Positions 6,593 to 64,000 of a stretch of 64,000 bases of DNA are shown here, piece after piece. This DNA comes from Pristiophorus japonicus (taxonomy: Eukaryota), in assembly GCF_044704955.1 (NCBI RefSeq), contig NC_091980.1, positions 150,970,001-151,034,000 on the forward strand, given 5' to 3'. How positions within the stretch are numbered: the stretch's first letter is position 1; each line of letters starts with the position of its first letter. Made by a program: the position numbers and the translations under genes. Below the pieces are notes generated by a model. It did no database searches. It was not told the DNA's origin and saw nothing but the letters and a program-made list of their open reading frames with translations.

Positions 6593-6689
6593 GTTCCAGC
6601 TCGGTCGGCGCTGCTCTCTGGGGACCCGGGGCACGGCAGCACCCCGGGGAGCAGCAGCCTGTGGAGTGTATCTGGCCGTGAGCTCCCAC

Positions 6690-7890
6690 GGACTGTCCCC
6701 ATCCACCTCCGGCCGAGGAGCGTCGGCCCATCGCCTGCAACGACCCACAAAGGTGAAGCGTGCGTCTCGTCCCCATGGGATACCTGCACCATCGCTCTGC
6801 CAAGAACAGGTATCAGTTCCCTGGTGTAGGTACGCAGCTTCGCCATGACCGGGACCAGCTTGGGTCGTGCAGCTGGGTTAATCCACAGTTTATCAAAAGT
6901 TCTCCGACTCATCAACTACGGACCCGAGCTCGTGTCCACTTCCATACTCACTGGGACTCCGTTGATTTTTACTTCCCTTATCACTGGGGGCGAATCGTCG
7001 GTGCACGTATACAGTCCAAGCACCTCATCTTCTTCTACCTGCTGCTCGCTGAACAGTGGATCATCCCCCATCTCCTCAGCCACATGGTGAGTCCGATTTC
7101 TTTTACACATACGCTGAGGGTGGCCTTTAACGTGGCAGGTATTGCACGTGTACTCCGCAAACCTGCACCAGTGAGCCCCATGACTTCCTCCACAGCGCCA
7201 GCATGGTGCTGCTTGATTGGCCCCCCTCGGCGGACTCTAAGTTCCAGGATCCCGAGGTCCGTGCTCTCTGCCCCGGGCAGAGCCACGTTCTGCAGTTTTG
7301 TCCGTGCTGGGCGCTATCCTGTGGACAGTGCCTGCCGGGTTCGAGACTGTGTGGATTATTTGCTTGGTGCTGCAAGTCGAGGTCATATATGCCCGGCTGA
7401 TGGTGATGGCCTTTATCAGAGTGACTGTGGGTTCCGTGGCCAGCAGCTTGTGAAGGAGGCCCTCGTGGCCAATCCCTATAACGAAAACGTCCCGTAAAGC
7501 CTCGTCGAGGTGTGCCCCGAAATCACACGGCGCCGCGAGTCTCCTGAGGTCCGCAGCATATTTGGTGACATCCTGGCCCTCAGGTCTGCAGTGATGGTAA
7601 AATTTGTATCTGGCCGTGAGGATGCTCTCCTTCGGTTTTAACTAGTCACGAATGAGTTCAGTCAGCTCCTCGTATGACTTGTCCCTGGCGCTCCCAGGTG
7701 CCAGCAAATCCCTGACGAGACAGTAAACCTCATCTCCACAACTGGAGAGCAATATCGCCTTACGCTTCTCTCTCATTGAGTATGTGTCCTCCGTCAGGTC
7801 GTTTGCTGTGAAGTAGTACTCGAGCCTTTCCGTAAAGGCCTCCCAATCATTGCCCACGGTAAAATCCTTTAGCGAGCCCAGAGTCGCCAT
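6690..7890 (-). pseudogene. Gypsy gag-protease pseudogene (element B)
   Basis: MATLGSLKDFTVGNDWEAFTERLEYYF; knuckle remnant; MEVDTSS and GDGPTLLGRRW; stop at ~7642 and several frameshifts. Confidence 0.9.
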
Positions 7891-13361: not shown

Positions 13362-14837
13362 CTCTCTGTCCCTCTCTCTCTCTCTCTGTCTCTCTGTCCC
13401 CCTCTCTCTCTCTCTCTGTCTGTCTCTCTCTCTCTGTCCCTCTGCCCCTTCTCTCTCTCTCTCTGTACCCCTCCCCCTCTCTCTCTTTCTTTCTGTCCCT
13501 CTCTCTCTCTCTCTCTCTATTCAGAAGAATGAGAGGTGATCTTATTGAAACATAAGATGATGAGGGGGACCGACAAGGTTGATGCAGAGAGGATATTTCC
13601 ACTTATAGGGGAAACTAGAACTAGGGGGCATAGTCTCAGAATAAGGGGCTGCCCAGTTAAAACTGAGATGAGGAGGAATTTCTTCTCTTAGAGGGTTGTG
13701 GATCTGTGGAATTCTCTGCCCCAGAGAGCTGTGGAGGCAGATTTTTGAGCGATAAGAGAATAAAGAGGGTTATGGGGAGCGGGCAGGGAAGTGGAGCTGG
13801 GTCCATGATCGGATCATCCATGATCTTATTGAATGGCAGAGCAGGCTCGAGGGGCCAAATAGCCGACTTCTGCTCATATTTCTTATGTCTCTCTCTGTCC
13901 GTCTCCCTCTCTCTGTTTCTCTCACTCTGTGTCTCTCTCTCTGCCTCTCTCTGTCTCCCTCTGTCCCTCTCTCTCTGTCACTCTCTCTCCCCGTCCCTCA
14001 GTCTCTCTCTATTCCTCAGTCTCTCATTGTTTCTTTCTCTCTCTCTTTCTCTCTCTGTCCCCCCTCTCACTCTTTGTCTCTCTCTCTGTCCCCATCTCTT
14101 TTTGTCTCTCTCTCTGCTCTCTCTCTCTCTCTCTGTCTTTCTCTGACTCTGTCGCTCTCTCTCTNNNNNNNNNNNNNNNNNNNNNNNNNNNNNNNNNNNN
14201 NNNNNNNNNNNNNNNNNNNNNNNNNNNNNNNNNNNNNNNNNNNNNNNNNNNNNNNNNNNNNNNNNNNNNNNNNNNNNNNNNNNNNNNNNNNNNNNNNNNN
14301 NNNNNNNNNNNNNNNNNNNNNNNNNNNNNNNNNNNNNNNNNNNNNNNNNNNNNNNNNNNNNNNNNNNNNNNNNNNNNNNNNNNNNNNNNNNNNNNNNNNN
14401 NNNNNNNNNNNNNNNNNNNNNNNNNNNNNNNNNNNNNNNNNNNNNNNNNNNNNNNNNCCTCTTGTCTCACCTTCTCCCTTTCTCTGTCTCTCTCTCTCTC
14501 CCTGTCCCTCTCTCTCTCTTTCTCTCTGTCTCTCTCTGTCCCTCTCGCTCTCCCTGTCCCTCTCTCTCTCTCTGACCTTCTCTCTCTCTCTCTGTTTCTC
14601 TCTGTCTCCCTCTCTCTCTCTCTGACACTCTCTCCCTCTCTTTTGCTGTCCCTCTCTCTCTCTATCCTTCTATTGTCTCCGTCTGTCTCTCTCTGCCCCT
14701 TTCTTCTCTTATGATCATATTGAATGGTGGTGCAGACTCGAAGGGCCGAATGGCCTGCTCCTGCATCTATTTTCTATGTGTCTATGTTTCTATGTTTCTC
14801 TTCTGTCTCTCTCTCTCTTTCTGTCCTCTCTCTCTTT
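13362..14837. repeat. (CT)n-rich low-complexity tract containing CR1 3' fragments (13519-13887, 14709-14797) and an assembly gap
   Basis: CT/CTGT repeats; FRRMRGDLIET CR1 ORF2 C-terminus; CR1 tails. Confidence 0.9.
14165..14457. other. Assembly gap (293 N)
   Basis: Run of N. Confidence 1.
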
Positions 14838-18000: not shown

Positions 18001-21000
18001 TAGGTACTCGGCGGTGTCCCGACCCGTGACCAATTTGTCATCCTGAAGGACCACCATGTGTGGTACCGACTTGAGTAGGCTCTCCATGTTTCTCTGGAAG
18101 ATCGCTGCAGCCGACTCAATTCCAAACAGGCATCTGTTGTAGATGAACAGTCCCTTGTGCATGTTGATTGAGGTGAGGCCCTTTGAAGACTCCTGCGTCA
18201 TGTAGGCCGAAGTCAGGTCAAGCTTGGTGAATGTCTTGCCTCCTGCCAGCGTCGCAAATAGGTCGTCTGCCTTAGGTAGTGGGTATTGGTCCTATAGTGA
18301 GAAATGATTAATAGTTACTTTATAATCGCCGCAAATCCTGACCGTGCCATCACTTTTGAGTACTGGAACAATCGGGCTGGTCCACTCGCTGAATTCCACT
18401 GGGGAGATGATGCCCTCATGTTGCAACCTGTCCAGCTCGATTTCCACTCTCTCCCTCATCATGTGAGGTACCGCTCGCGCCTTGTGGTGAATGGGTATTG
18501 CCTCTGGGACCAAGTGGATCCGTACTTTCGCCCTGGAAAAGTTTACAATGCCTGGCTCAAAAAGGGAAGGAAATTTGTTAAGAACCTGGGTACATGAGGC
18601 TTCATCGACATGTGATAGCGCTCGGATGTCATCCCAGTTCCAGCAGATTTTGCCCAGCCAGCTCCTTCCAAGCAGTGTGCGGCCATCGCCTGGGACAATC
18701 CAGAGTGGCGGTTTGTGCACCGTGCCCTCGTAGGTGACCTTGACCATGGCACTGCCCAGGACAGTGATAAGCTCTTTGGTGTACGTTCTCAGTTTCGTGT
18801 GGATGGGGCTCAGGGCTGGTCTGAATACCTTGTTGCACCACAGTCTCTCAAACATCTTTTTACTCATGATGGATTGGCTAGCGCCAGTGTCCAGTTCCAT
18901 TGCTACGGGTAAGCCATTCAATTTTATATTTAGCATTATAGGTGGACATTTCGTCAAAAATGTGTGCACCTTGTGTAATGATGTTGTGTATCTGTAAAGC
19001 ATGCACTCCCATGTTCCGCCACCAGGGAGCTCATCCCCTGAAGTCCCAAGGGATCCCAGCATCCCTTGGGAGCACTGTATATAAACCGGCCCCTAAGGCC
19101 TGTTCCTCACTCTGGAGTGTCTTATTAAAGACTGAGGTCACTGTTACTTTAACTTCACTGTGTGCTGCCTCATCTGTGTTAGGAACACAATAACTGGATA
19201 CGAATCCAACGTAAAGATGCAGCAAACTGTGGGCATCCTGGAGAAGTTCTCGGAGGGCGAGGACTGGGAAGCCTATGTCGAACGGCTAGACCAGTACTTT
19301 GTAGCCAACGCGCTGGACGGAGAAGGAAGTACTGCAAAAGGACTCCTCACAACTGTGGGGCACCGACCTACAGCCTCATGAAAAATCTTCTGGCTCCGGT
19401 GAAACCCAGAGATAAGTCATATGAGGAGCAGTGTACACTGGTTCGGGAGCATCTTAACCCGACTGAGAGCATGCTGATGGCGAGGTATTGGTTCTCCACG
19501 TGCCAGCGATCTGAAGGTCAGGAAGTGGCGAGCTACGTCGCCGAGCTAAGGCGACTTGCAGGACAATGTGAGTTTAATGGCTACCTGGAGCAGATGCTCA
19601 GAGACTTTTTTGTACTGGGCATTGGCCACAAGACCATCCTATGAAAACTTTTGACTGTAGAGACACCGACCCTCAGTAAGGCCATTGCGATAGCACAGAC
19701 GTTTATGTCCACCAGTGATCACAGCAAACAAATCTCTCAGCACACAAGTGCTAGCAATGTTCATAAAGCAATGTTCAGAAATGTACAGGGCAGAACCCAC
19801 GGGTATGCAACTGCCAGCAGGCCTCAGGTGACCCAGATGACTCAAAGAGTTCCCAACAAAGGATGAATGCAAGGCAATTCACACCTTGTTGGCGTTGTGG
19901 AGGCTTCCATTCAGCCTATTCATGCCGCTTCAAAGGGTATGTTTGCAAGAGCTGTGGAATAATGGGGCACCTCCAACGAGCTTGCAAATGAACTACAAGC
20001 TCTGCAAAACCTGCTAACCACCACGTGGCAGAGGAAGATCAGTCCATGGTGGATCAAAGCAATTTCGAGCCTTAGAGAGAGGAGGCAGATGCTGAAGTAC
20101 ATGGGAGTGCATGCTTTGCAGATACACAACAGTATTCATCTTAACTATCCGGCTATTTCTACTCTAACTACCACGTGGTACTGGTGGCAATCCTGAGATT
20201 ACCATCTTTGAGGTCCTACTTTTTAATTTAACTCATATCTCCCTAGATTCAGCTTGTAGGACCTCATCCCGCATTTTACCTATATCGTTCGTACCTATAT
20301 GTACCACGACAACTGGCTGTTCACCCTCCCCCTCTAGAATGCCCTGCAGCCACTCCGAGGCATTTTTGACCCTTGCACAAGGGAGGCAACATACCATCCT
20401 GGAGTCTCGATTGCGGCCACAGAAACGCCTATCTATACCCCTTACAATAGAATCCTCGACCACTATAGCTCTCCCACTCTTTTTCCTGCCCTCCTATGCA
20501 GCAGAGCCACCCATGGTGCCATGAACTTGGCTGCTGCTGCCTTCCCCTGATTGGCCATCTCCCCCAATAGTACACAAGGTGGTATATCTGTTTTGGAGGG
20601 AGATGACCGCTTCCTTCCACTGCTCTTCCTGATGGTCACCCATTTCCTATCTGCCTGTGTAACCTTTAGTTGCGGTGTGACCAACTCACTAAACGTGCTA
20701 TTCACGACATCCTCAGCATCGCGGATGCTCAAGAGTGAATCCATGCGCAGCTCTAGTGCCACAATGCGGTCTGTCAGGAGCTGCAGCTGAATACACTTCC
20801 TGCACACATAGTTATCAGGGACACAGGAAGCATCCCTGATTTCCCACATAGCACTGGAGGAGCATGATATGGATCTGGGCTCTCCTGTCATGACTTAACC
20901 CATAAATTACTTAATTTGGCAACAATGCCAAGGTTTCTTACTGCTAAGAAAAAGAAAAAAGAAAAAAGATAAAGAAAAAGGAAACTACTCACCAAGCAAC

Positions 21001-21167: not shown

Positions 21168-22360
21168 AAGTGGGCCCAGCAGTACCCCAGCGATGTGGTG
21201 GGCCCAGTGATACCCCAGTGATGTGAGCTGGGTCCTGTGAAACCCCAGTGATGTGAAGTGGGCCCAGCGATACCCCAGCGATGTGGTGGGCCCAGTGATA
21301 CTCCAGTGATGTGAGCTGGGTCCTGTGATACCCCAGTGATGTGAAGTGGGCCCAGCGATACCCCAGCGATGTGGTGGGCCCAGTGATACTCCAGTGATGT
21401 GGTGGGCCCAGTGATGTGGTGGGCCCAGTGATACCCCAGCGATGTGGTGGGCCCAGTGATACCCCAGTGATGTGGTGGGCCCAGCGATACCCCAGTGATG
21501 TGAAGTGGGCCCAGCGATACCCCAGTGATGTGAAGTGGGCCCAGCGATACCCCAGTGATGTGGTGGGCCCAGTGATACCCCAGCGATGTGGTGGGCCCAG
21601 TGATACCCCAGTGATGTGGTGGGCCCAGCGATACCCCAGTGATGTGAAGTGGGCCCAGCGATACCCCAGTGATGTGAAGTGGGCCCAGCGATACCCCAGT
21701 GATGTGAGGTGGGCCCAGCGATACCACAGTGATGTGAAGTGGGCCCAGCGATACCCCAGTGATGTGAGGTGGGCCCGGCGATACCCCAGTGATGTGAAGT
21801 GGGCCCAGCGATACCCCAGTGATGTGGTGGGCCCAGCGATACCACAGCGATGTGGTGGGCCCAGCGATACCCCAGTGATGTGGTGGGCCCAGCGATACCC
21901 CAGTGATGTGGTGGGCCCAGCGATACCCCAGCGATGTGGTGGGCCCAGCGATACCCCAGTGATGTGGTGGGCCCAGCGATACCCCAGTGATGTGGTGGGC
22001 CCAGCGATACCCCAGCGATGTGGTGGGCCCAGCGATACCCCAGTGATGTGGTGGGCCCAGCGATACCACAGTGATGTGGTGGGCCCAGCGATACCACAGT
22101 GATGTGGTGGGCCCAGTGATACCCAAGCAATGTGAAGTGGGCCCAGCGATACCCAAGCAATGTGAAGTGGGCCCAGTGATGTGAAGTGGGCCCAGTGATA
22201 CCCCAGCGATGTGAGCTGGGCCCAGTGATACCCCAGCGATGTGAGCTGGGCCCAGCGATACCCCAGCGATGTGAGCTGGGCCCAGCAATACCCCAGTGAT
22301 GTGGTGGGCCCAGCGATACCCCAGCGATGTGGTGGGCCCAGCGATACCCCAGCGATGTGA
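21168..22360. repeat. 28/30-bp minisatellite, ~40 copies
   Basis: Unit GTGGGCCCAGCGATACCCCAGTGATGTG(AA). Confidence 0.96.
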
Positions 22361-22619: not shown

Positions 22620-24050
22620 GGTAGGAAGTGGGCCAAACCCTTTTCTGACGAGGCCAACGAGACCCTCATTGCAGAGGTGCACTCAAGGTGGGGCCAATTA
22701 ACCCGGTGTGCAAAGGAGAAGCCCCACTCCGGGCTTACTGGCGTAGTTGGGGCGAGATAGCCGACGTCATCTCCTCGACGTTGAACGTTGCGAGGGGTGC
22801 AGTCGCGTGCCGGAAGCGCTGGAACATCCTGGTTGCTTTGGCAAGAGTGAGTAGGATTCTTTATTGTAAGGATACGAATTGTATTTAGAAATAATTTTCT
22901 GGATTGAATTTAGGCTTGTTATTCTTACATATATTACATATAGTCCCTGCTATGAACCTGCGCCCTTTTTAAGTCTCTCTGGCTGCTGTCATTTACAGAG
23001 ACCCATCATGGACTGGGGGAAGAGCTGCCCTTGCTCAATCTCTGCCTTGTAGTACGAGAAAGATGTATCAAGCGTTAGCTCTTATGATCTTTTTTTATAA
23101 CCGTGCATCAATTGTGGAGAAAAACCCTCTTAGCATATAACTGTGGAAACACGTTTGCCAAGGAAATGATCTACCAACAGACGCGAGCTCGGGCACACTG
23201 GAGGCGGCTCTGTGCAGCTCCAGGAACTGTCGAGCATTGAGGAATGATCAGCAGCGTTGGTGGGAGCCACGGTCGCTCGACCACCACCCGTGGTGTGGCA
23301 GAGCCCACACAGGCAGTGCCTGAGTGTTTGAAGCAGTGTTACAGTAATGTTCAAGAGGTGTAACGCCATTTAATTATAATTATAATATACAAATATTATA
23401 TCCGAATGATGTCATGTAATGCATGCTGCCTCTGTGCTACATTCAGCTTGACAGCACAAGAATAAATGACATCATAGCAGGAGCAGGCGATCTGTCCGTT
23501 TGTCCCCTTTTCTATTGGTTCCCCATACAGTCCCTTATCATTCTGTCTATATCTGACTTATCCAGCATCCACAGCTCTCTGGGGCAATGAATTCCACATA
23601 GATTCATGAGTAGTACTTCTCCTCATATGTCTGTCAGCGCAGCACAGCACAAGATTAAGGTGTACTCTTCTGTTCCAATTGTGTTTTGCAGGTCGCCCAG
23701 CACCAGCGGCCCAACCTATGGAGATGACCTCAGGTGGAGAGGATGAGGATGAGGATGAGCAAGCACCGGATCATGAGACCACCGAGAAGGAGCAAACGGA
23801 GGAGGGGCAGGAGCACTCAGTGTTGGAAGTTGCAGTAACTGGGAGAACCTGCGGTGCACAGTTCGGTTGCGAGCAAAGAGGTAGCAGGAGCAAGCGGCAT
23901 GCAGTTGGCGACGCCAAGGTGCACACTTTTGCCCTGGCAGAGCCCACGGAGGTGGGGTCAGCGAGTGGAGCATGCGCCTACCCCGGCCCATCGCATCGAG
24001 GGCTCGGCCGCGACTGTGACCATCTCCAGACAGTTGTGGCCTTCACAGAG
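22620..24050 (+). pseudogene. Harbinger Myb/SANT-like DNA-binding gene remnant, three probable exons (22620-22846, ~23160-23310, ~23691-24050)
   Basis: RKWAKPFSDEANETLIAEV, then after a frameshift WGEIADVISS..CRKRWNILVALAR followed by donor GTGAGT. Exon 2 reads NRRELGHTGGG..LSSIEE with TGA stops. Acceptor TTTTGCAG precedes an acidic EDEDEDE exon. Confidence 0.8.
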
Positions 24051-24071
24051 GAGTTCTCCCCCCCGGGTGTC

Positions 24072-24094
24072 GCCTTTTGGCTAAGATCAAGTGT
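24072..24094 (+). ncRNA. U2 snRNA 5' fragment (nt 12-34), head of the Tx1-like element; not a functional U2 gene
   Basis: GCCTTTTGGCTAAGATCAAGTGT is a 23-nt exact match to vertebrate U2 as I recall it. Confidence 0.9.
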
Positions 24095-24315
24095 TGATTG
24101 GGTATTCATATGCTAATTGACTAATTGCAGAAACTCATCTTTCCAGTTTGGCTGGGTCTGGCCTTTTGGCTTGGGCCAATTGGAGAGAAGAAGAAATCTG
24201 CATGTCGACCAACCATTGGGTGGACCAGGAGGTCTGCCAAGGTGCCGGACTGGCACCACAAAAGATTGAAGGCTTCGGCCAAAACACAAGCCGAAAGGAG
24301 GAATCTGCAACCCGG

Positions 24316-25578
24316 ATGGCGGCCAACCGAGCGGCGAACCAGGGAGTCCGAAACACCATCCGAGTGACTGTGGAGAAAGTGGAAGGACAGACAACGATCA
24401 ACTGGGACCTCTTCATGAAGAAAATCCTGCTGGGAACCTGTGGCCTGAAAGTCGCGGATGTCTTCGCCTTGCAGGACGTCCCGAAGAGAGATTACTTTGA
24501 TGTAACCTTCAGAAATGTCACCCTATGCCTGAAGTTCCTGAAGGGATTGAAGGAGGCGAGTGAACCACTGCGGTCAATGCTGACTTGGGAACCACTGTTC
24601 ACCCTCCCGTCGCAGAGGAAACGTACTATCACAGTGCACACGTATAACCCCCACAACCCAGTCATTGATGTGCTGACATTCCTCGCCAGGTATGTCAATG
24701 GGGCAAGAAACAACATCGACCTGAAAGACCTCCACGGGATATGGACCAGCAAACGCCAGATCCAGGTCACCTTGAAAGTGGACGCCAGCGGAATCATCCT
24801 GCACCCCTCCTCCAGCTTCGCCATCGGAGGAAGTTGGAGCTACATGGTGTTCGCTGGTCAACCCAACGTGTGCCGCACCTGCGGGAAGGCGGGCCATGTG
24901 GCGGCAAGCTGCAAAACCCTCATCTGCCGCAACTGCAAGAACGAAGGCCACCAGACAAAGGACTGTAAGGAGACCAAGTGCTGCAACCTTTGTGGTCTGG
25001 CTGGGCACCTTTACAAGAACTGCCCCAAACGCAACTTCAGCTATGCACAGGTGGCAAAGAACATTGCACGAGAGGAGGAGGAAGCTGAGGAACACAATGC
25101 TCCAGAGGAGACCTACACCCTCCCACCGACCAACGCCCTGGGCAAAGAAGCAACTGCCCTCGTAGACTCCGAACAAGTCAGGGAGGAAGAGAAGCCTGCT
25201 ACAGTGAGCTGCGAGACACCAGCACCCAGCAGTGAAGCTCTCCCCCAGCACACCAAGTCCATGAACGAGGAGGCAGCAGATGATGGAGCGGGATGGGAGA
25301 CCATCAAGAAAAAAGCCTGCAAGCGTAAGGAGAAGAGGCAAGCAAGGGCTCCTGCTGAAACGAAAGGGAAGAGGCAGCTAATGTCCATGACAGATAGCAG
25401 CGGCAGCAGCTCGTCTGATGATGAAAGGCGAGACAAAGCCCCTCACTACCGCCACCAGAACAAGAGGCAAAACGCCAATTCACAGCCCCAGGTGACCGGG
25501 GGCAGTGAAACAACGAGTGCAGCCCCGCTCCCTCACCTATTCTGTGTATCGTATAGTGCCACATGTAATGTAATTTGA
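24316..25578 (+). CDS. Tx1/Keno-type ORF1 protein (ZCCHC3-like, three CCHC knuckles), ~420 aa
   Basis: Uninterrupted ORF; QGVRNTIRV..FDVTF RRM-like region; knuckles CRTCGKAGHVAASC, CRNCKNEGHQTKDC, CNLCGLAGHLYKNC. The start ATG is inferred, and the last codons run into the tail. Confidence 0.8.
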   Translation: MAANRAANQGVRNTIRVTVEKVEGQTTINWDLFMKKILLGTCGLKVADVFALQDVPKRDYFDVTFRNVTLCLKFLKGLKEASEPLRSMLTWEPLFTLPSQRKRTITVHTYNPHNPVIDVLTFLARYVNGARNNIDLKDLHGIWTSKRQIQVTLKVDASGIILHPSSSFAIGGSWSYMVFAGQPNVCRTCGKAGHVAASCKTLICRNCKNEGHQTKDCKETKCCNLCGLAGHLYKNCPKRNFSYAQVAKNIAREEEEAEEHNAPEETYTLPPTNALGKEATALVDSEQVREEEKPATVSCETPAPSSEALPQHTKSMNEEAADDGAGWETIKKKACKRKEKRQARAPAETKGKRQLMSMTDSSGSSSSDDERRDKAPHYRHQNKRQNANSQPQVTGGSETTSAAPLPHLFCVSYSATCNVI

Positions 25579-26024
25579 TGACTGTATTACTGTGTATCCT
25601 GGATTGTACTGAATTGTACCTTGAAATGTAAAGCAAGCAAATGTATTGAACGGAACTGCCGTCAGCATCCAAATGTATTGTATGGAATTGCTGACCGCAT
25701 CCAAATGTAATGAACTGCTTTCCAATGTATTGTGCAAATTTTTATATGAATAAAGTATATTTTGAAATTAAAAGAAAAATTCTGGCTGCCTGGCCCCTTT
25801 AAGGGGTTGCATGGCCATTCAGTTTTGTGCATCTGCGAAATTTAACTTTGAAAAAGCCGGGCGAGGTATGCGCAGGACGGACAGAGAGCTGTACGGCTGA
25901 GCGGTGTAGAGGGAACATTGCACAGGACCGACAGAGAGCTGCACGGCCAAGCGGTGTGGAGGAAATGTCACACAGGGCCGACGTGCACCTCTCTGAGGAG
26001 CTTCCTGAAGAGGCAAGAGAACAG

Positions 26025-26730
26025 CTCTGTGACCTACAGCAGCGGCCAAGCTCACTGTACGCAGGGCTCTCTGTGATCTACAGGAGGAGCGGCCAAGCTG
26101 GTGCATTGTATGGAACTGCTGTCAGCATCCAAACAAATTGTATGGAATTGCTGACCGTAAGTTGCTGAGCTATTTTCCAATGTATTGTGAAAATTTTATA
26201 TGAATAAAGTATATTTAAAAAAAAAAGTGACCTACTACAGCAGCGGCCAAGCTCACTGTCCGCAGGGCTCACTGTCACCTACAGCAACGGCCAAGCTCAC
26301 TGTCCGCAGGGCTCACTGTCACCTACAGCAGCGGCCAAGCTCACTGTCCGCAGGGCTCACTGTCACCTACAGCAACGGCCAAGCTCACTGTCCGCAGGGC
26401 TCACTGTCACCTACAGCAGCGGCCAAGCTCACTGTCCGCAGGGCTGTCTGTCACCTACAGCAGCGGCCAAGCTCACTGTCCGCAGGGCTGTCTGTCACCT
26501 ACAGCAGCGGCCAAGCTCACTGTCCGCAGGGCTCTCCTTCACCTACAGCAGCGGCCAAGCTCGCTGTCCGCAGGGCTCTCTGTCACCTACAGCAGCGGCC
26601 AAGCTCACTGTCCGCAGGGCTGTCTGTCACCTACAGCAGCGGCCAAGCTCACTGTCCGCAGGGCTCTCCATCACCTACAGCAGCGGCCAAGCTCGCTGTC
26701 CGCAGGGCTCACCGTCACCTACTACAGGAG
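26025..26730. repeat. 44-bp minisatellite, ~13 copies
   Basis: Unit CACCTACAGCAGCGGCCAAGCTCACTGTCCGCAGGGCTCACTGT; interrupted at 26101-26226. Confidence 0.95.
26101..26226 (+). mobile_element. Second, 5'-truncated tail of the same Tx1-like family
   Basis: Homologous to ~25645-25779 (GGAACTGC.GTCAGCATCCAAA..TTTTATATGAATAAAGTATATTT plus poly-A). Confidence 0.9.
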
Positions 26731-28337: not shown

Positions 28338-31300
28338 CTATTGACCAGGTAATGTCCCAGCATATTGACCAGGACACTGACCGGGACATTGTCCGGGGCA
28401 CTGATTGGGGCATTGACCCCGATATTGACCCCGACATTGACCGGGATATTGACCGGGGCATTGAACGGGGTATTGAACCCAACACTGAATCTGACATTGG
28501 CACCGACATTGACCCCGACACTAACCCCGACAGTGACCCCGCCATTGACCATGACATTGACCGGGGCATTGACCCCAACAGTGACCCCGACATTGACCGA
28601 GACATTAACCCTGACATTCACACCGACAGTGACCCCGACATTGACCGAGACATTGACCCCGACAGTGACTTCGACATAGACCCCGACATTGACCCTGACA
28701 TTGACCCTGACATTGACCTCGACACTGACCCCGACACTGACCAGGTCATTGACCCCGACAGTGACCCCGACACTGACCAGGTCATTGACCCCGACAGTGA
28801 CCTGACATTGACCCCGACAGTGACCATGACATTGATCGGGGCATTGACCCCGACAGTGACCATGACATTTACCGGGACATTGACCCTGGCATTGACCTCG
28901 ACACTGACCCTGACAGTGATCCCGACATTGACCCAGACAATGACCCCGACATTGATCGAGACATTGACCCTGACATTGACCCCGACAGTGACCCCTATCT
29001 TGACCCTGACACTGACCCCGACATTATCCCCAACAGTGACCCCGCCACTGACCAGGTCATTGACCCCGACAGTGACCCCGACATTGACCCCAACAGTGAC
29101 CCCGACATTGACCCTGACATTGACTGGGACATTGACCCTGACAGTGACCCCGACACTGACCCCGACATTGACTCTGACATTGTTCCCCAACAGTGACCCC
29201 GACATTGACCGGGGTATTGACCCCGTCAGTGACCCCGACATTGACCACGACATGGACCCTGACATTGACCCCGACATTGTTCCCGACATTGACCCCGACA
29301 TTGACTGGGGCATTGATCCCGACATTGACCCCGACATTGAACCCGACATTGACCCCGACATTGTTCCCAACATTGACCCCGACATTGACTGGGGCATTGA
29401 TCCCGACATTGACCCCGACATTGAACCCGACATTGACTGGGGCATTGATCCTGACATTGACCCCGACTTTGAACCCGACAGTGACCCCGACATTGACCGA
29501 GACATTGACTCTGACATTCACACCAACAGTGACCCCGACATTGACCGAGACCTTGACCCCGACAGTGACACCAACATAGACACCAACATTGACCCCGACA
29601 TTGACCCCGACATTGACCCCGACACTGACCCCGAAATTGACCAGGGCATTGACTCCGACAGTGACACCAACATTGACCCCGACATTGACCAAGACGTTGA
29701 TCCCGACATTGACCCCAACATTGACCCCGACATTAACCCCGACAGTGATTCCGACATTGACCCCGACATTGATCCCGACATTAACCCTGACAGTGACCCC
29801 GACATTGACCCCGAGTTTGACCGGGGCATTGACCCAGACAGTGAAACCGACATAGACCCCGACATTGACCAATACATTGACCCCAACATTGACCCCACAT
29901 TGACTCCGACAGTGACCCCGACATTGACCAAAACATTGACCCTGACATTGACCCCGACATTGACCAAGACATTGACCTCAACATTGACCCCGACATTGAC
30001 CCCAACAGTGACCACGACATTGATCCTAACAATGACCCCAACATTGACCCCGACACCGACCCCGACACTGACCCCTACATTGACCAAGACGTTGACCCCG
30101 ACACTGACCCTGAAATTGACCGGGACATTGACCCCAACATTTACCCCGACATTGGCTCCGACATTGACCTCAACACTGACCCCAACACTGACCAAGATGC
30201 TGACCCCAACATTGACCCCGACATTGACCCCAACATTGACCAAGACATTGATTCCGACATTGACCCCGACATTAATCCCGACATTGACCCCGACACTGAC
30301 CGCAAAGTTGACCGGGACATTGACCCCGACAGTGACACCAACATTGACCCCGACATTGACCCGAACAGTGACCCCGACATTGACCAAGACGTTGACCCCG
30401 ACATTGACCAGGACATTGACCCTGACACTGACCCCGACAGTGACCCCGACATTGACCAAGACATTGACCCCAACATTGACCCTGACATTGACCCCGACAA
30501 TGACCCCGATATTGACCCCGACACTGACCCCGCCACTGACCCCGAAATTGACCCCGACACTGACCCCGAAATTGACCCCGACACTGACCCTGACACTGAC
30601 CTCGAAATTGACCCCGACACTGACCCCGACATTGACCCCAACAGTGAACCCGAAATTGACACCGACAGTGAACCCAACATTAACCGGGACATTGACCCCG
30701 ACAGTGACCCAGACATTGATCCCGGCAGTGACCTCGACATTGACCCCGACAGTGACCCTGGCAGTGACCCCGACATTGACTCCGACATTGACCCAGCATT
30801 GACCGGGGCATTGACCCCGACAGTGACTCCGACATTGACCTCAACACTGAACCCGACATTGACCCCGACAGTGACCCCAACATTGACCTCAACACTGACC
30901 CCGACATTGACCTCGACACTGACCCCGATATTGACCCCGACATTGACCCCAACATTGACCTCAACACTGACCCCGACATTGACCCCAACATTGAACTCAA
31001 CTCTGACCCCGACATTGACCCCGATATTGACCCTGACATTGACCCCGACATTGACCCCGATATTGACCCTGACATTGACCCCGATATTGATCCCGACAGT
31101 GACCCCGACATTGATCCTGACAGTGACCAGGACATTGACCCCGACATTGACCCCGACATTGACCCCAACTTTGAACAGGACATTGACCCCGACATTGACC
31201 CCGACATTGACCCCGACATTGACTCCGACATTGACCTCAACACTAACCCCAACACTGACCAAGACGCTGATGCCGACATTGACCCCGACATTGACCCCAA

Positions 31301-34300
31301 CATTGACCAAGACATTGATCCCGACACTGACCCCGACATTGATCCTGACAGTGACCAGGACATTGACCCCGACATTGACCCCGACAGTGACCCCGACATT
31401 GATCCTGACAGTGACCAGGACATTGACCCCGACATTGACCCCGACATTGACCCCAACTTTGAACAGGACATTGACCCCGACATTGACCCCGACATTGACT
31501 CCGACATTGACCTCAACACTAACCCCAACACTGACCAAGACGCTGATGCCGACATTGACCCCGACATTGACCCCAACATTGACCAAGACATTGATCCCGA
31601 CACTGACCCCGACATTGACCCCGATATTGACCCTGACAGTGACCCGATATTGACCCCGACAGTGACCCCGACATTGATCCTGACAGTGACCAGGACACTG
31701 ACCCCGACATTGACCCCGACATTGACCCCAACATTGAACAGGACATTGACCCCGACATTGAACCCGACATTGACCCCAACATTTACCCCGACATTGACTC
31801 CGACATTGACCTCAACACTGACCCCAACACTGACCAAGACGCTGACCCCGACATTGACCCCGACATTGACCCCAACATTGACCAAGACATTGATCCCGAC
31901 ATTGACCCCGACAGTGATCCCAACATTGACCCCGAGTTTGACCGGGGCATTAACCCTGACATTGACCCCGACATTGACCCTGACATTAAACCCGACATTG
32001 ACCGCAAAATTGACCGGGACATTGACCCCGAAGTGACACCGACAGTGACCCCGACATTGACCCCGACAGTGACCCCGACTTTGACCAAGACGTTGACCCC
32101 GACATTGACCAGGACATTGACCCTGACATTGACCCCGACATTGACCAGAACATTGATCCTGACACTGACCCCGACAGTGACCCCGACATTGACCGAGACA
32201 TTGACCCCAACATTGACCCTGACATTGACCCCGACAATGACCCCGATATTGACCCCGACACTGACCCCGACACTGACCCCGAAATTGACCCCGACACTGA
32301 CCCCAATACTGACCCCGAAATTGACCCCGACACTGACCCCGAAATTGACCCCGACACTGACCACGACACTGACCCCGACATTGACCCCAACAGTGAACCC
32401 GAAATTGACACCGACAGTGAACCCAACATTAACCGGGACATTGACCCCGACAGTGACCTCGACATTGACCCCGACAGTGACCCTGGCAGTGACCCCGACA
32501 TTGACTCCAACATTGACCCAGTCATTGACCGGGGCATTGACCCCGACAGTGACTCCGACATTGACCTCAACACTGACCCCGACATTGACCCCGACAGTGA
32601 CCTCGACATTGACCTCAACACTGACTCCGACATTGACCCCAACATTGACCTCGACACTGACCCCGACACTGACCCCGACATTGACCCCAACATTGACCCC
32701 GACATTGACCCTGACAGTGACCCCGATATTGACCCCGACAGTGACCCCGACATTGATCCTGACAGTGATCGCGATATTGATCCTGACAGTGACCAGGACA
32801 TTGACCCCGACATTGACCCCAACATTGAACAGGACATTGATCCCGACATTGACCCCGACATTGACCCCGACAGTGACCTGGACATTGACCCGGTCATTGA
32901 CCCCGACAGTGACCCCAACATTGACCTCAACACTGACCCCGACATTGACCCCAACATTGACCTCAACACTGACCCCGACATTGACCCTGACAGTGACCCC
33001 GATATTGACCCCGACAGTGACCCCGACATTGATCCTGACAGTGAACTCGATATTGATCCTGACAGTGACCAGGACATTGACCCCGACATTGACCCCAACA
33101 TTGAACAGGACATTGACCCCGACATTGACCCCAACATTGACCCCGACAGTGACCCCGACATAGACCCCGACATTGACCCCGACATTGACCCCGACAGTGA
33201 ACCCGACATTGATCCCGACATTAACCCCGACATTGACCCCGACATTGACGCCGGCAGTGACCCCGACATTGACCCCGACATTAACTCCGACAGTGACCCC
33301 GACATTGACCCCGACATTAACCCCGACATTGACTCCGACATTGACCCCGACATTAACCCCGACATTAACCCCGACAGTGAACGGGACATTGACCCCGACA
33401 TTAACCCCGACAGTGACCGGGACATTGACCGGGACATTGATGCCGACATTGACCCCGACAGTGACCCCGAAATTGACCCCAACAGTGAACCCAACAGTGA
33501 CCGGGACATTGGCCCCGACAGTGATCCCGACATTTACCTCGACAGTGACCCCGACATTGACCCCGACATTGACCCCGGCAGTGACCTCGACATTAACCCT
33601 GACAGTGACCCCGACATTGACTAAGACGTTGACCCCGACATTGACTCCGACACTGACCCCGAAATTGACCCCGACACTGACCCCGAAATTAACCCCGACA
33701 GTGACCGGGACATTGACCGGGACATTGATGCCGACACTGACCCCGACAGTGACCCCGAAATTGACCCCAACAGTGAACCCAACAGTGACCGGGACATTGA
33801 TCCCGACAGTGACCCCAACATTGACCTTGACATTGACCCCGACAATGAACCCGATATTGACCCCGACACTGACACCGAAATTGACCCCGACACTGACATC
33901 GACACTGACCCCGAAATTGACCCCGACACTGACCCCGAAATTGACCCCGACACTGACCCCAACACTGACCCCGACATTGGCCCCAACAGTGAACCCGAAA
34001 TTGACACCGACAGTGAACCCAACATTAACCGGGACATTGACCCCGACAATGACACCGACATTTACCCCGGCAATGACCTCGACATTGACCCCGACAGTGA
34101 CTCCGACATTGACCTCAACACTGACCCCGACAGTGACCCCGACATTGACCTCAACACTGACCCCGACATTGACTCCAACATTGACCTCGACACTGACTCC
34201 GACATTGACCCCAACATTGACCTCAACACTGAACCCGACATTGACCCCAACATTGACCTCAACACTGACCCCGACAGTGACCCCGACATTGATCCTGACA

Positions 34301-36914
34301 GTGACCCCGATATTGATCATGACAGTGACCAGGACATTGACCCCGACATTGACCCCAACATTAAACAGGACATTGACTCCGACATTGACCCCGACATTGA
34401 CCTCAACACTGACCCCGACATTGACCCCAACATTGACCTCGACACTGACCCCGACACTGATCCCGACATTGACCCCGACATTGACCCTGACAGTGACCCC
34501 GATATTGACCCCGACAGTGACCCCGACATTGATCCTGACAGTGACCGCGATATTGATCCTGACAGTGACCAGGACATTGACCCCGACATTGACCCCGACA
34601 TTGAACCCGACATTGACCCCGACATTGACCCCGACAGTGACCCCGACATTGACCCCGACATTGACCCTAACATTGACCTCAACACTGACCCCGATATTGA
34701 CCCCAACATTGACCTCAACACTGACCCTGACATTGACCCTGACAGTGACCCCGATATTGACCCCGACAGTGACCCCGAAATTGATCCTGACAGTGACCCC
34801 GATATTGATCCTGACAGTGACCAGGACATTGACCCCGACATTGAACAGGACTTTGACCCCGACATTGACCCCGACATTGACCCCGACAGTGACCCCGACA
34901 TTGACCCCGACATTGACCCCGACAGTGACCCCGACATTGATCCCGACATTAACCCCGACATTGACCCCGACATTGACCCCGACAGTGACCCCGACATTGA
35001 CCCCGACATTAACCTCGACAGTGACCCCGACATTGACCCTGACATTAACCCCAACATTGACTCCGACATTGACCCCGACATTAACCCCGACATTAACCCC
35101 GACAGTGAACAGGACATTGACCCCGACATTAACCCCGACATTAACCCCGACAGTGACCGGGACATTGACCGGGACATTGATGCCGACATTGACCCTGACA
35201 GTGACCCCAAAATTGACCCCAACAGTGAACCCAACAGTGACCGGGACATTGACCCCGACATTGACCTCGACAGTGACCCCGACATTGACCCCGACATTGA
35301 CTCCGGCAGTGACCTCGACATTGACCCTGACAGTGACCCCAACATTGACTAAGACGTTGACCCCGACATTGACTCCGACACTGACCCCGAAATTGACCCC
35401 GACACTGACCCCGACACTGACCCCGAAATTAACCCCGACAGTGACCGGGACATTGACCGGGACATTGATGCAGACATTGACCCCGACAGTGACCCCGAAA
35501 TTGACCCCAACAGTGAACCCAACAGTGACCGGGACATTGATCCCGACAGTGACCCCGACATTGACCTCGACATTGACCCCGACAATGACCCCGATATTGA
35601 CCCCGACATTGACACCGAAATTGACCCCGACACTGACCCCGAAATTGATCCCGACACTGACCCCAACACTGACCCCGACATTGACCCCAACAGTGAACCT
35701 GAAATTGACACCGACAGTGAACCCAACATTAACCGGGACATTGACCCCGACAGTGACACCGACATTGACCCCGGCAGTGACCTCAACATTGACCCCGACA
35801 GTGACCTGGCAGTGACCCCGACATTGACTCCGACATTGACCCAGTCATTGACCGGGGCATTTACCCCAACAGTGACTCCGACATTGACCTCAACACTGAC
35901 CCCGACATTGACCCCGACAGTGACCCCGACATTGACCTCAACACTGACCCTGACATTGACCCCAACATTGACCTCGACACTGACCCCGACATTGACCCCA
36001 ACATTGCCCTTCTGCTCCACGGGAGGTTTCTGTCCTCCCTGAGCTCGCCTTAGGACACCTGCGTTACAGTGTGACTGTTTAATTGGATGGCGGGTCCCTC
36101 TTTTGATCTATATTCTACTTGTAGATACACAAGGAAAATACTACCTATGACCCCGGCAGTGACCCCGACGTTGACCTCAACACTGACCCCGACATTGACC
36201 CTGACAGTGACCCCGATATTGACCCCGACAGTGACCCCGACATTGATCCCGACAGTGACCTCGATATTGACCCCGACAGTGACCAGGACATTGACCCCGA
36301 CATTGACCCCGACATTGAATAGGACATTGACCCCGACATTGACCCCGACATTGAACAGGACAGTGGCCCCGACAGTGACCCCGACATTGAACACGATATT
36401 GACCCCGACAGTGACCCCGACATTGATCCCGACAGTGACCCCGATATTGACCCTGACAATGACCAGGACATTGACCCCAACATTGACCCCGACATTGATC
36501 CCGACAGTGACCCCGATATTGACCCTGACAATGACCAGGACATTGACCCCGACATTGACCCCGGCATTAACCCCAACATTGACCCCGACATTGAATCCGA
36601 CATTGACCAGGACAGTGACCCTGAAATTGACCCCAACAGTGACCCCGACATTGACCCCGACATTGACCAGGATATTGACCCCGACAGTGACCACGACATT
36701 GACCCCGACAGTGACCCTGACATTGACCCCGGCAGTGACCTCGACATTGACCCCGACAGTGACCCTGACATTGACTTAGACGTTGACCCCGACATTGATC
36801 CCGACATTGACTCCGACATTGACCCTGACATTGACCGGGGCATTGACCCCAACAGTGACCCCGACATTGACCCCGACATTGACCGAGACATTGACCCCGA
36901 CAGTGGCCCCAACA
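28338..36914. repeat. 12-bp minisatellite (GACATTGACCCC)n, ~8.6 kb, ~700 units
   Basis: 12-bp period with a 6-bp sub-period; produces the TPTL/DPDI/VGVN/SGSM pseudo-ORFs. Confidence 0.98.
36004..36075 (-). pseudogene. 28S rRNA fragment (~72 bp) embedded in the 12-bp array
   Basis: The reverse complement contains GTAACGCAGGTGTCCTAAGGCGAGCTCAGGGAGGACAGAAACCTCCCGTGGAGCAGAAGGGCAA, a conserved vertebrate 28S segment. Confidence 0.92.
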
Positions 36915-42224: not shown

Positions 42225-43830
42225 CTTGAGTGAGGTTCTGGGGGAGTTCAGTCCCACTCTGTGACGGGTCAGTGAGATTCTGGGGAGTTCAGTCCCACTC
42301 TGTGACGGGTCAGTGAGATTCTGGGGAGTTCAGTCCCACTCTGTGACTGGTCAGTGAGTTTCTGGGGAGTTCCATTCCACTCAGTGACGGGTCAGTGATG
42401 TTATGGGGAGCTGGGTCCCACTCTGTGACGGATCAGTGAGGTTCTGGGGAGTTCAGTCCCACTCTGTGACGGGTCAGTGAAGTTCTGGGTGAGATCAGTC
42501 CCACTCTGTGACGGGTCAGTGATGTTATGGGGAGCTGGGTCCCACTCTGTGACGGATCAGTGAGGTTCTGGGGAGTTCAGTCCCACTCTGTGACTGGTCA
42601 GTGAGGTTCTGGGGAGCTGGGTCCCACTCTGTGACTGGTCAGTGAGTTTCTGGGGAGTTCAGTCCCACTCTGTGACGGGTCAGTGAGGTTCTGGGGAGCT
42701 GGGTCCCTCTCTGTGACTGGTCAGTGAGGTTCTGAGGAGTTCAGACCCACACTGTGACGGGTCAGTGAGGTTCTGGGGAGTTCAGACCCACACTGTGATG
42801 GGTCAGTGAGGTTCTGGGGGAGCTGGGTCCCACTCTGTGACTGGTCAGTGAGTTTCTGGGGAGTTCAGTCCCACTCTGTGACGGGTCAGTGAGGTTCTGG
42901 GGAGCTGGGTCCCACTCTGTGACTGGTCAGTGAGTTTCTGGGGAGTTCAGTCCCACTCTGTGACGGGTCAGTGAGGTTTCCGGGGAGTTCCATTCCACTC
43001 AGTGACGAGTCAGTGAGGTTCTGGGGAGCTGGGTCCCTCTCTGTGACTGGTCAGTGAGGTTCTGGGAAGTTCAGACCCACACTGTGACGGGTCAGTGAGG
43101 TTCTGGGGAGTTCAGACCCACACTGTGATGGGTCAGTGAGGTTCTGGGGAGCTGGGTCCCACTCTGTGACTGGTCAGTGAGTTTCTGGGGAGTTCAGTCC
43201 CACTCTGTGACGGGTCAGTGAGGTTTTCGGGGAGTTCCATTCCACTCAGTGACGCGTCAGTGATGTTATGGGGAGCTGGGTCCCACTCTGTGACGGATCA
43301 GTGAGGTTCTGGGGAGTTCAGTCCCACTCTGTGACGGGTCAGTGAAGTTCTGGGTGAGATCAGTCCCACTCTGTGACGGGTCAGTGAGGTTCTGGGGATC
43401 TGGGTCCCACTCTGTGACGGGTCAGTGAAGTTCTGGGTGAGATCAGTCCCACTCTGTGACGGGTCAGTGAGGTTCTGGGGAGTTCAGTCCCACTCTGACG
43501 GGTCAGTGAGGTTCTGGGGAGCTGGGTCCCTCTCTGTGACGGGTCAGTGAGGTTCTGGGGAGTTCAGTCCCACTCTGTGACGGGTCAGTGAAGTTCTGGG
43601 TGAGATCAGTCCCTCTCTGTGATGGGTCAGTGAGGTTCTGGGGATCTGGGTCCCACTCTGTGACGGGTCAGTGAGGTTCTGGGGAGTTCAGTCCCACTCT
43701 GACGGGTCAGTGAGGTTCTGGGGAGCTGGGTCCCTCTCTGTGACGGGTCAGTGAGGTTCTGGGGAGCTGGGTCCCTCTCTGTGACGGGCCAGTGAGGTTA
43801 TTGGGGAGCTGGGTCCACTCTGTGAGCTGG
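42225..43830. repeat. 41-bp minisatellite, ~39 copies
   Basis: Unit GGGTCAGTGAGGTTCTGGGGAGTTCAGTCCCACTCTGTGAC. Confidence 0.96.
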
Positions 43831-63300: not shown

Positions 63301-64000
63301 GGGAGAGTATGTGAGGGGTAGAGTGTGTCGGGGTAGAGTGTGTGTGTGGGGTAGTGTGTGTTGGGGATATAATGTCGGGGGTAGAGTGTGTGGGGTAGAG
63401 TGTGGCGGATAGAGTATGTGTGGGGAGGCAGAGTGTGTGGGGTAGAGTGTGTGTGGGGTAGAGTGTGTGGGGTAGAGTGTGTGGTGTAGAGTTGTGGGGG
63501 GAGAGTGTGTCTGGGGTAGAGTTTGTGGGGAGAGTATGTGAGGGGTAGAGTGTGTCGGGGTAGAGTGTGTGTGGGATAGTGTGTGTTGGGGATAGAATGT
63601 CTGGGGTAGAGTGTGTGGGGGGGTAGAGTGTGTGGGGTATAGTGTGTCTGGTGTAGAATGTCGGGAGTAGAGTTTGTGGGTTAGATTGTGTGGCGGTGGA
63701 TTGTGTGGGGGTAGAGTGTGGGGGTAGAGTTTGTGGGGTAGAGTGTGGGATGTAGAGTGTGCGTGGGGTAGAGAGTATGGAGTAGAATGTGTGGGTACAG
63801 TGTGTGGGGTAGAGTGTGTGGGGTAGAGTGTGTGGGGGATAGAGTGTATGGGCTAGATTGAGGGGAGTAGAGTATGTGGGGTAGAGAGTGTGTGGGGTAG
63901 AGTGTGTGTGAGGTAGAATGTGTGGGGTAGTGTGTGGGGGGTAGTGAGTGTTTGTGGGGAGGTTGAGTGTGTGGGGTAGATTTTGTGGCTTCGAGAGTGT
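51397..64000. repeat. G-rich ~14-bp satellite (GTGTGTGGGGTAGA)n, >12.6 kb, runs off the window
   Basis: Degenerate GGGGTAGA(GT)n units; almost no C on the plus strand. Confidence 0.98.

What the first reader, a model, noticed from the sequence alone, without database searches (positions are those of the whole stretch)
24070..25779. U2 snRNA-headed, ORF1-only Tx1/Keno-like retroelement outside a U2 gene
Seen: a 23-nt U2 5' fragment (a 12-nt echo GGCCTTTTGGCT recurs at 24160-24171), a leader, an unbroken ~420-aa ORF1 with three CCHC knuckles, then directly an AATAAA/poly-A tail. There is no ORF2 and no downstream U2 sequence. It is the only clean TE ORF in a window where the others are broken. 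Known: Keno (Tx1 clade) targets U2 genes close to this position; crocodilian SINEU elements have snRNA heads; HAL1 is an ORF1-only L1 relative. Inference: a non-autonomous half-Keno family, transcribed by read-through from a U2 promoter and carrying the U2 head to off-target sites. It would be an intermediate between a site-specific LINE and an snRNA-headed SINE.
Basis: partly seen in the sequence, partly recalled or inferred. Interest (0 to 1): 0.8.

Follow-up and report, generated by a model that had tools for sequence, protein, structure and literature searches.

The report
Broken copy of shark Keno retrotransposon
This is a single broken copy of a known kind of jumping gene that targets the U2 RNA gene; the more interesting find is beside it: the same shark-like genome holds thousands of short U2-derived jumping elements, of a class described in crocodiles, and some have landed in exactly the same target site.

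Summary
The anatomy is real, but the 'half-Keno family' is not. The element is one copy of a ~5.6-kb two-ORF Tx1 LINE in a shark-like genome. It has lost ~3.9 kb (end of ORF1, all of ORF2) at a 2-nt microhomology at 25530-25531. That junction occurs once in the genome, whereas 75 of 80 fetched relatives carry ORF2. The 420-aa ORF is a cut ORF1 (native 523 aa) plus 15 codons of 3' UTR. The parent is a true Keno: an ORF-intact copy sits in a U2 gene at nt 38, and 31 tails abut that site. Found on the way: three U2-derived, poly(A)-tailed SINE-like families (5,583 diagnostic joints). One of them abuts the Keno site at 14 places, so these are SINEU-like elements outside crocodilians, probably moved by Keno. 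The scan earlier noted an analogous spliced-leader-headed system in another genome (e1-7803915), not this one.

The parts
23800..24071 (+). Left flank: old dispersed repeat, cut off where the element begins; its normal continuation is absent
   Evidence: 43 other matches; 8 of 8 paralogues read on into sequence that does not follow the element here
24072..24094 (+). U2 snRNA nt 12-34: 5'-truncated 'short' form of the family's U2 head
   Evidence: 100% to the genome's own U2 gene; 25 of 82 copies have this short head form
24095..24315 (+). Family 5' leader; contains the U2-like echo at 24160-24171 (probably a relic of an older head) and an upstream in-frame ATG at 24202
24316..25531 (+). First 405 codons of Tx1 ORF1: ZCCHC3-type RBD1 (~24349-24564), RBD2 (~24634-24849), three CCHC knuckles (~24871-25023), then low-complexity region
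   Evidence: Pfam PF23057, PF23058, PF00098; 263 of 381 aligned residues identical to ORF1 of the intact on-target copy L147
25530..25531 (+). Junction: CC microhomology shared by ORF1 and the 3' UTR; ~3.8-4.0 kb of the parent is missing here
   Evidence: gap 3,804-3,997 nt in 9 of the 11 copies (of 20) whose tail lay in the fetched span; the other two are longer through insertions; unique in the genome; bridged by a 380-nt contig of a second sample
25532..25779 (+). Last 248 nt of the family 3' UTR; supplies 15 codons and the stop (25576-25578); AATAAA 25749-25754; A-rich end
   Evidence: 39 other tails at 93-96%; same tail ends full-length copies
25780..25920 (+). Right flank: a different old dispersed repeat, apparently lacking its first ~20-25 nt; no target-site duplication
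26094..26226 (+). Separate 5'-truncated tail of a sister subfamily, next to a 44-bp tandem array
   Evidence: 81% to the focal tail, 92-93% to L169; array 26235-26722

Best explanation
A one-off, retrotransposition-dead remnant of an autonomous Keno (Tx1-clade) LINE. SHOWN: the parent is ~5.6 kb with ORF1 (RNA-binding, CCHC) and ORF2 (APE endonuclease, RT, zinc domain). It inserts at nt 38 of U2 genes but is also widely dispersed, and it carries its own U2 5' head (U2 1-44 in the long form). SHOWN: this copy lost ~3.9 kb at a 2-nt microhomology, is 5'-truncated at U2 nt 12, has no TSD, and its flanks are not contiguous. INFERRED: the join arose by microhomology-mediated end joining or an RT template jump, either inside one insertion with loss of target DNA (about 60%) or by a genomic deletion fusing two nearby insertions (about 40%). 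INFERRED: the head was captured when a master copy in a U2 gene (with U2 38-44 duplicated) was co-transcribed from the U2 promoter, and further heads (U1, an unidentified 60-nt piece) were added later. The open frame is probably chance survival in a copy ~5% from its nearest node.
For: Junction pattern with <=2 mismatches: 28 hits, 1 exact (this locus), 0 with one mismatch, 27 with two (backward control 15); 27 of 27 fetched and none is this family. Junction-spanning DNA search: 39 of 39 other scored hits match the tail side only (40 of 999 candidates scored). 75 of 80 relatives hold >=300 nt of ORF2 and 48 of 80 hold >=3 kb. Other shortened copies (L175, L182, L216, L217, L207) each have their own breakpoints, so sporadic deletion is common. 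On-target copy L147: U2 1-53, 33-nt filler, own U2 1-44 head, ORF1 523 aa, ORF2 1,147 aa (APE, RVT_1, zf-RVT), poly(A), U2 38-191. Tail+poly(A)+U2 38 onward: 31 places, control 0. Both halves of the focal copy are nearest the same short-head subgroup (rank correlation 0.60 over 45 copies; trees). 9 of 70 copies are open over the first 300 codons.
Against: ORF1 differences lean synonymous: omega 0.45, p=0.02 against the nearest 14 copies; private changes only, 10 N / 8 S, omega 0.44, p=0.10, against 1.04 pooled over the other copies. A broken copy, L031, shows omega 0.12, so changes inherited from unsampled masters can cause this. DNA searches score only 40 candidates, and a pattern misses copies with >2 changes in 23 nt. 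Route of formation and U2-promoter transcription are untested. Many of the 31 on-target places lie in arrays and are not independent insertions.
Confidence: 0.88

Rival explanations
1. A non-autonomous ORF1-only 'half-Keno' family (HAL1-like), of which this is one member.
For: Head, leader, open ORF1 core and poly(A) tail are all present; an autonomous partner exists.
Against: No second copy of the junction. No shared ORF2-less structure among 80 relatives; the only repeated internal gap (L211/L225) goes with identical flanks. No TSD, against 26 of 36 intact-length copies with one (control 1 of 36).
Confidence: 0.04
2. An exapted ORF1 gene: a Keno ORF1 core freed from ORF2, with its own poly(A) signal, kept by selection as an RNA-binding protein (ZCCHC3- or L1TD1-like).
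For: All folded domains kept and frame open; omega 0.44-0.45; junction present in two samples of the species (assembly and run X5).
Against: Private omega not significantly below 1 (p=0.10); 9 of 70 copies are equally open; it sits among decayed repeats; no promoter shown; no expression data.
Confidence: 0.06
3. Assembly artefact joining two repeat copies.
For: Non-contiguous flanks and no TSD.
Against: A 380-nt contig from a different sample and study (X5) covers 25220-25599 with 2 differences, bridging the junction; an X1 contig bridges tail and right flank, 25745-26130, with 0 differences.
Confidence: 0.02

Closest known systems
Keno (Tx1 clade; Kojima and Fujiwara 2004, not seen; described via PMC4494074, PMC4640811, PMC6136364)
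   Same: Two ORFs, APE endonuclease, insertion 37 nt into U2; the 3' flank equals the published 3' target quoted in PMC6136364.
   Different: Carries its own U2 head even at the on-target site, and most fetched copies are dispersed outside U2 genes; the focal copy has lost ORF2.
Tx1-Mar families of crocodilians, e.g. Tx1-11_Crp (U2 head), Tx1-2_Crp (U1 head) (PMC4494074)
   Same: Keno-related Tx1 LINEs with U1- or U2-derived 5' ends; recurrent head addition (6 of 82 copies here have a U1-like head).
   Different: Tx1-Mar prefer a Mariner element; this family still hits U2 itself.
SINEU-1/2/3 (PMC4494074)
   Same: The three short families found here have U2-derived heads and bodies, stacked U2 pieces, poly(A) tails, some TSDs, and no tail shared with the LINE.
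   Different: Reported only from crocodilians, with Tx1-Mar as partner; here a shark-like genome, with insertions at the exact Keno site. The focal element itself is not a SINEU.
HAL1 (half-L1; definition from PMC5753468)
   Same: ORF1 without ORF2, with 5' and 3' ends kept.
   Different: HAL1 is a replicating family; this is a single locus with a truncated ORF1.

Membership tests
Keno (parent family) | Two-ORF non-LTR element with APE endonuclease and RT | tested here: met
   L147 ORF2 1,147 aa: Exo_endo_phos, RVT_1, zf-RVT; homologues include Tx1-labelled proteins
Keno (parent family) | Insertion 37 nt into U2 snRNA genes, with the 3' flank starting at U2 nt 38 | tested here: met
   L147; 31 tail+poly(A)+U2-38 places, control 0; site as in PMC6136364
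Keno (parent family) | RT phylogeny groups with named Keno elements | not testable with these tools
   Hits BAD04856.1 and BAC82621.1 carry no family name; no RT tree built
Keno (focal copy) | Located in a U2 gene | tested here: not met
   No U2 beyond nt 12-34 in the window; it is an off-target, broken member by sequence (86% to L147 over the 5' part)
HAL1-like half-LINE family | ORF1 only, no ORF2 | tested here: met
   0 nt of ORF2, but ORF1 is itself truncated
HAL1-like half-LINE family | Multiple independent insertions sharing the same internal junction | tested here: not met
   1 locus
SINEU (the short families A-C, not the focal element) | Short (<500 nt), U1/U2-derived 5' part, poly(A) tail | tested here: met
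   Full units 264-364 nt (one 5'-truncated, 97 nt); 17 of 20 sampled loci classed by script
SINEU (the short families A-C) | Same composite structure in many dispersed copies (not one-off retrocopies) | tested here: met
   5,583 exact U2-3'/U2-5' joints, control 0; TSD in 6 of 17, control 0 of 17
SINEU (the short families A-C) | Mobilised by a Tx1 partner (shared target) | tested here: met
   Family B tail+poly(A) abuts U2 nt 38 at 13 places, and nt 31 onward at 1; control 0. Families A and C not tested.
SINEU (the short families A-C) | Transcription start and polymerase | not testable with these tools
   No RNA holder listed

The most novel reading that the evidence does not exclude
This shark-like genome holds a Keno-SINEU system, probably of independent origin from the crocodilian one. 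A LINE that still cuts U2 genes at nt 38 has taken U2's 5' end as its own head, spread off-target, and mobilises thousands of U2-built SINEs that it also places into U2 sequence at the same base. Landing in a U2 gene would give such SINEs an external snRNA promoter and a fresh U2 head, which would answer how promoter-less SINEU are transcribed and why heads stack up.
Probability: 0.5. Interest if true: 0.6.

Novelty: new variant of a known kind. Interest (0 to 1): 0.4.

Why it matters
The focal locus alone matters little: it is a broken copy. The family context matters to retrotransposon specialists. Kojima 2015 found no SINEU outside crocodilians and left their transcription open. A second vertebrate lineage with abundant SINEU-like elements, an ORF-intact U2-targeting partner, and SINE insertions at the partner's exact site makes both partner identity and promoter source directly testable. 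It also shows a site-specific LINE that keeps its target while spreading genome-wide.

Tried and rejected
Rfam on the window: no hit, so it does not confirm the short U2 piece. Rfam on the ~60-nt 5' extension: no family. The extension does not match the two U2 upstream flank types sampled; its origin is unexplained. A gap in the U2 array at C1003:3815-8276 held only U2 repeats, no LINE (L146). Empty-site test: right flank is not the continuation of the left flank (0 of 8 adjacent; one weak non-adjacent score above shuffles), and the left flank is not upstream of right-flank paralogues (0 of 4). Target preference of dispersed tails: 34 distinct 3' flanks show T at positions 1 and 3 in about half, and no longer likeness to U2. 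The TSD count was faulty and was redone; the echo regex was too strict and was redone. SINE tails share nothing with the Keno body or tail at E<0.2. No RNA holder listed; run X5 is of unrecorded kind and its uncovered bins are not used. Contig depths are not used as copy numbers. Naming the fish RT hits as Keno failed. Literature: 'SINEU'+'shark' 1 irrelevant paper; 'Tx1'+'U2 snRNA'+'shark' 0; 'SINE'+'U2 snRNA'+'cartilaginous' 1, irrelevant on reading the passages; 'SINEU' whole word, 21 of 23 listed, none on sharks by title; 'ZCCHC3'+'Tx1'+'ORF1' 0. The HAL1 paper is not held. Repbase and Dfam could not be searched. No look-alike among earlier scan findings by sequence.

Full report
Observation. 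The U2 match is 23 nt, U2 nt 12-34, at 24072-24094, judged against the genome's own U2 gene. It has one match in the window and none in 100 shuffles. The ORF runs 24316-25578 (420 aa), with Pfam RBD_ZCCHC3_1st, RBD_ZCCHC3_2nd and three CCHC knuckles. AATAAA lies at 25749-25754. The named protein relatives are from sharks (5 of 6 hits named, 42-82% identity), so I treat the genome (5.9 Gb) as shark-like; that is an inference.

The parent family. A DNA search of the genome scored 40 of 2,682 candidates. No other hit ran past 25531 in one piece. The fetched copies continue there into the rest of ORF1 and an endonuclease-RT ORF2. In 11 of 20 copies fetched at length the same tail appeared downstream, 3,804-3,997 nt further on in 9 of them. 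An exact head+leader pattern found 76 places, control 0. I read 75 of the 76 (one on C4309 not fetched), plus 6 copies, giving 80 relatives. Of these, 75 hold at least 300 nt of ORF2 and 48 hold at least 3 kb. Four of the five without it have no tail within the fetched span; the fifth (L217) has its own deletion.

The junction is unique. ORF1 and the 3' UTR share CC at the join. A search across it gave 39 of 39 other scored hits on the tail side only (40 of 999 candidates scored). A 23-nt junction pattern with up to two mismatches gave 28 hits: this locus exactly, none with one mismatch, and 27 with two, against 15 for the backward control. All 27 were fetched and none belongs to the family. 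Other shortened copies each have different breakpoints; one apparent ORF1-plus-tail copy (L220) is a short tail nested in a full copy. The join is not an assembly error: a 380-nt contig from another sample bridges it with 2 differences. The 420-aa frame is 405 ORF1 codons plus 15 UTR codons; the intact ORF1 is 523 aa.

How it formed. No TSD was found, whereas 26 of 36 intact-length copies have one (shifted control 1 of 36). The left flank is a repeat cut mid-way. The right flank is another repeat, apparently short of its first ~20-25 nt. Both halves resemble the same short-head subgroup. Either one insertion lost its middle and its target DNA, or a deletion fused two nearby insertions; these data cannot separate the two. 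On selection: 9 of 70 copies are open over the first 300 codons. The focal copy's changes lean synonymous (omega 0.45, p=0.02 against near relatives; private changes omega 0.44, p=0.10, against 1.04 pooled). That is a result against pure neutral decay, but a broken copy (L031) leans further (0.12), so unsampled master lineages can explain it.

It is a Keno, and the head is built in. A gap in a tandem U2 array held L147: U2 1-53, a 33-nt filler, a second U2 1-44 head, ORF1 (523 aa), ORF2 (1,147 aa; APE, RT, zf-RVT), poly(A), then U2 38-191, so U2 38-53 is duplicated. Tail, poly(A) and U2 from nt 38 occur at 31 places, control 0. Many are in arrays and so not independent, and only L147 was read in full. 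This is the Keno site as quoted in PMC6136364 (passages) and discussed in PMC4640811 (passages). Head forms among 82 copies: long U2 1-44 in 35, short in 25, a variant in 17, unclassed 5. Upstream of the head, 45 of 82 carry a shared ~60-nt extension, 6 a U1-like piece (Rfam U1, E 6.8e-6 for L203, below the gathering score), 29 neither, and 2 were not placed. Capture of the head by co-transcription from a U2 promoter fits a master with U2 38-44 duplicated, but it is inferred. The extension matches neither U2 upstream flank sampled, so many masters began upstream of U2 +1 or gained another head.

Short U2-derived elements. Paired U2 motifs ~175 nt apart led to 20 loci, 9 chosen for the pairing and 11 single hits from the start of the list. 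By script, 17 of 20 fall into three composite, poly(A)-tailed families of 264-364 nt (one truncated at 97 nt). Of the other three, one is by eye a family A variant, one a Keno copy and one unrelated. TSDs were found in 6 of 17, control 0 of 17. Their internal joint, U2 3' end fused to U2 nt 7, occurs 5,583 times, control 0. The family B tail plus poly(A) abuts U2 nt 38 at 13 places and nt 31 at one, on 10 contigs, control 0; I did not read those loci, so they may be U2 genes, pseudogenes or other SINEs. The tails share no sequence with Keno, so recognition would be by poly(A) (inference from L1 biology, recalled).

Comparison with what is known. Kojima 2015 (PMC4494074; main text parts 1-4 of 5 read; supplements not seen and may bear on head alignments) already reports Keno-related Tx1 families with U1 or U2 heads (Tx1-11_Crp), so a U2-headed Tx1 is not new. 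It states that no SINEU was detected outside crocodilians and leaves transcription open. HAL1 is a replicating ORF1-only family (PMC5753468, passages), which this locus is not. My searches found no paper on SINEU or Keno in sharks, but the library lacks subscription papers and Repbase, so 'undescribed' is provisional. An earlier scan note (e1-7803915) describes an analogous spliced-leader-headed LINE/SINE system elsewhere; I did not check it.

Verdict. Focal element: one broken Keno copy (0.88), of low interest by itself. Family context: a headed, partly relaxed Keno with probable SINEU partners in a new lineage, a new variant of a known kind. Interest 0.4 overall.

Noticed in passing
L126-L145 (G000:C1); genome-wide patterns: Three U2-derived poly(A) SINE-like families; 5,583 diagnostic joints; family B abuts the Keno site at 14 places.
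   Followed up: partly
L147 (G000:C1003:16600-24300, minus strand): ORF-intact Keno inside a U2 gene of a ~765-bp tandem U2 array, with 16-nt TSD and 33-nt filler.
   Followed up: yes
e.g. L174:~312-371; 45 of 82 copies: Shared ~60-nt 5' extension ahead of the U2 head, in several forms; no Rfam match; origin unexplained.
   Followed up: partly
L203:6060-6157 (minus); also L031, L050, L169, L186, L188: U1 5' sequence added to or replacing the U2 head, as in crocodilian Tx1-Mar and SINEU.
   Followed up: partly
L169, L186, L195, L198, L207, L208, L220, L223; L039, L187, L206, L210: Keno copies often lie directly behind another Keno tail or a SINE B tail (head-to-tail stacking).
   Followed up: no
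G000:C9 111.0-113.8 Mb and C19 69.6-69.7 Mb: Two U2 gene classes with different upstream flanks; C9 units spaced ~18-21 kb, many with a short Keno tail at the U2 site ~330 nt downstream of an intact U2 gene.
   Followed up: no
window 26094-26226: Second, 5'-truncated tail of a sister subfamily beside a 44-bp array (26235-26722).
   Followed up: partly
window 51399-63988, 28364-36914, 3640-6579, 21169-22360, 42229-43830: Large tandem arrays (periods ~14-16, 12-48, 54, 28-30, 41); the last 12 kb has GC skew above 0.9.
   Followed up: no
window 5731-6912 (minus) and 18295-19062 (minus): ORFs of 394 and 256 aa that look like LTR-retroelement protease regions (label recalled).
   Followed up: no
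window 14165-14457: 293-base run of N.
   Followed up: no
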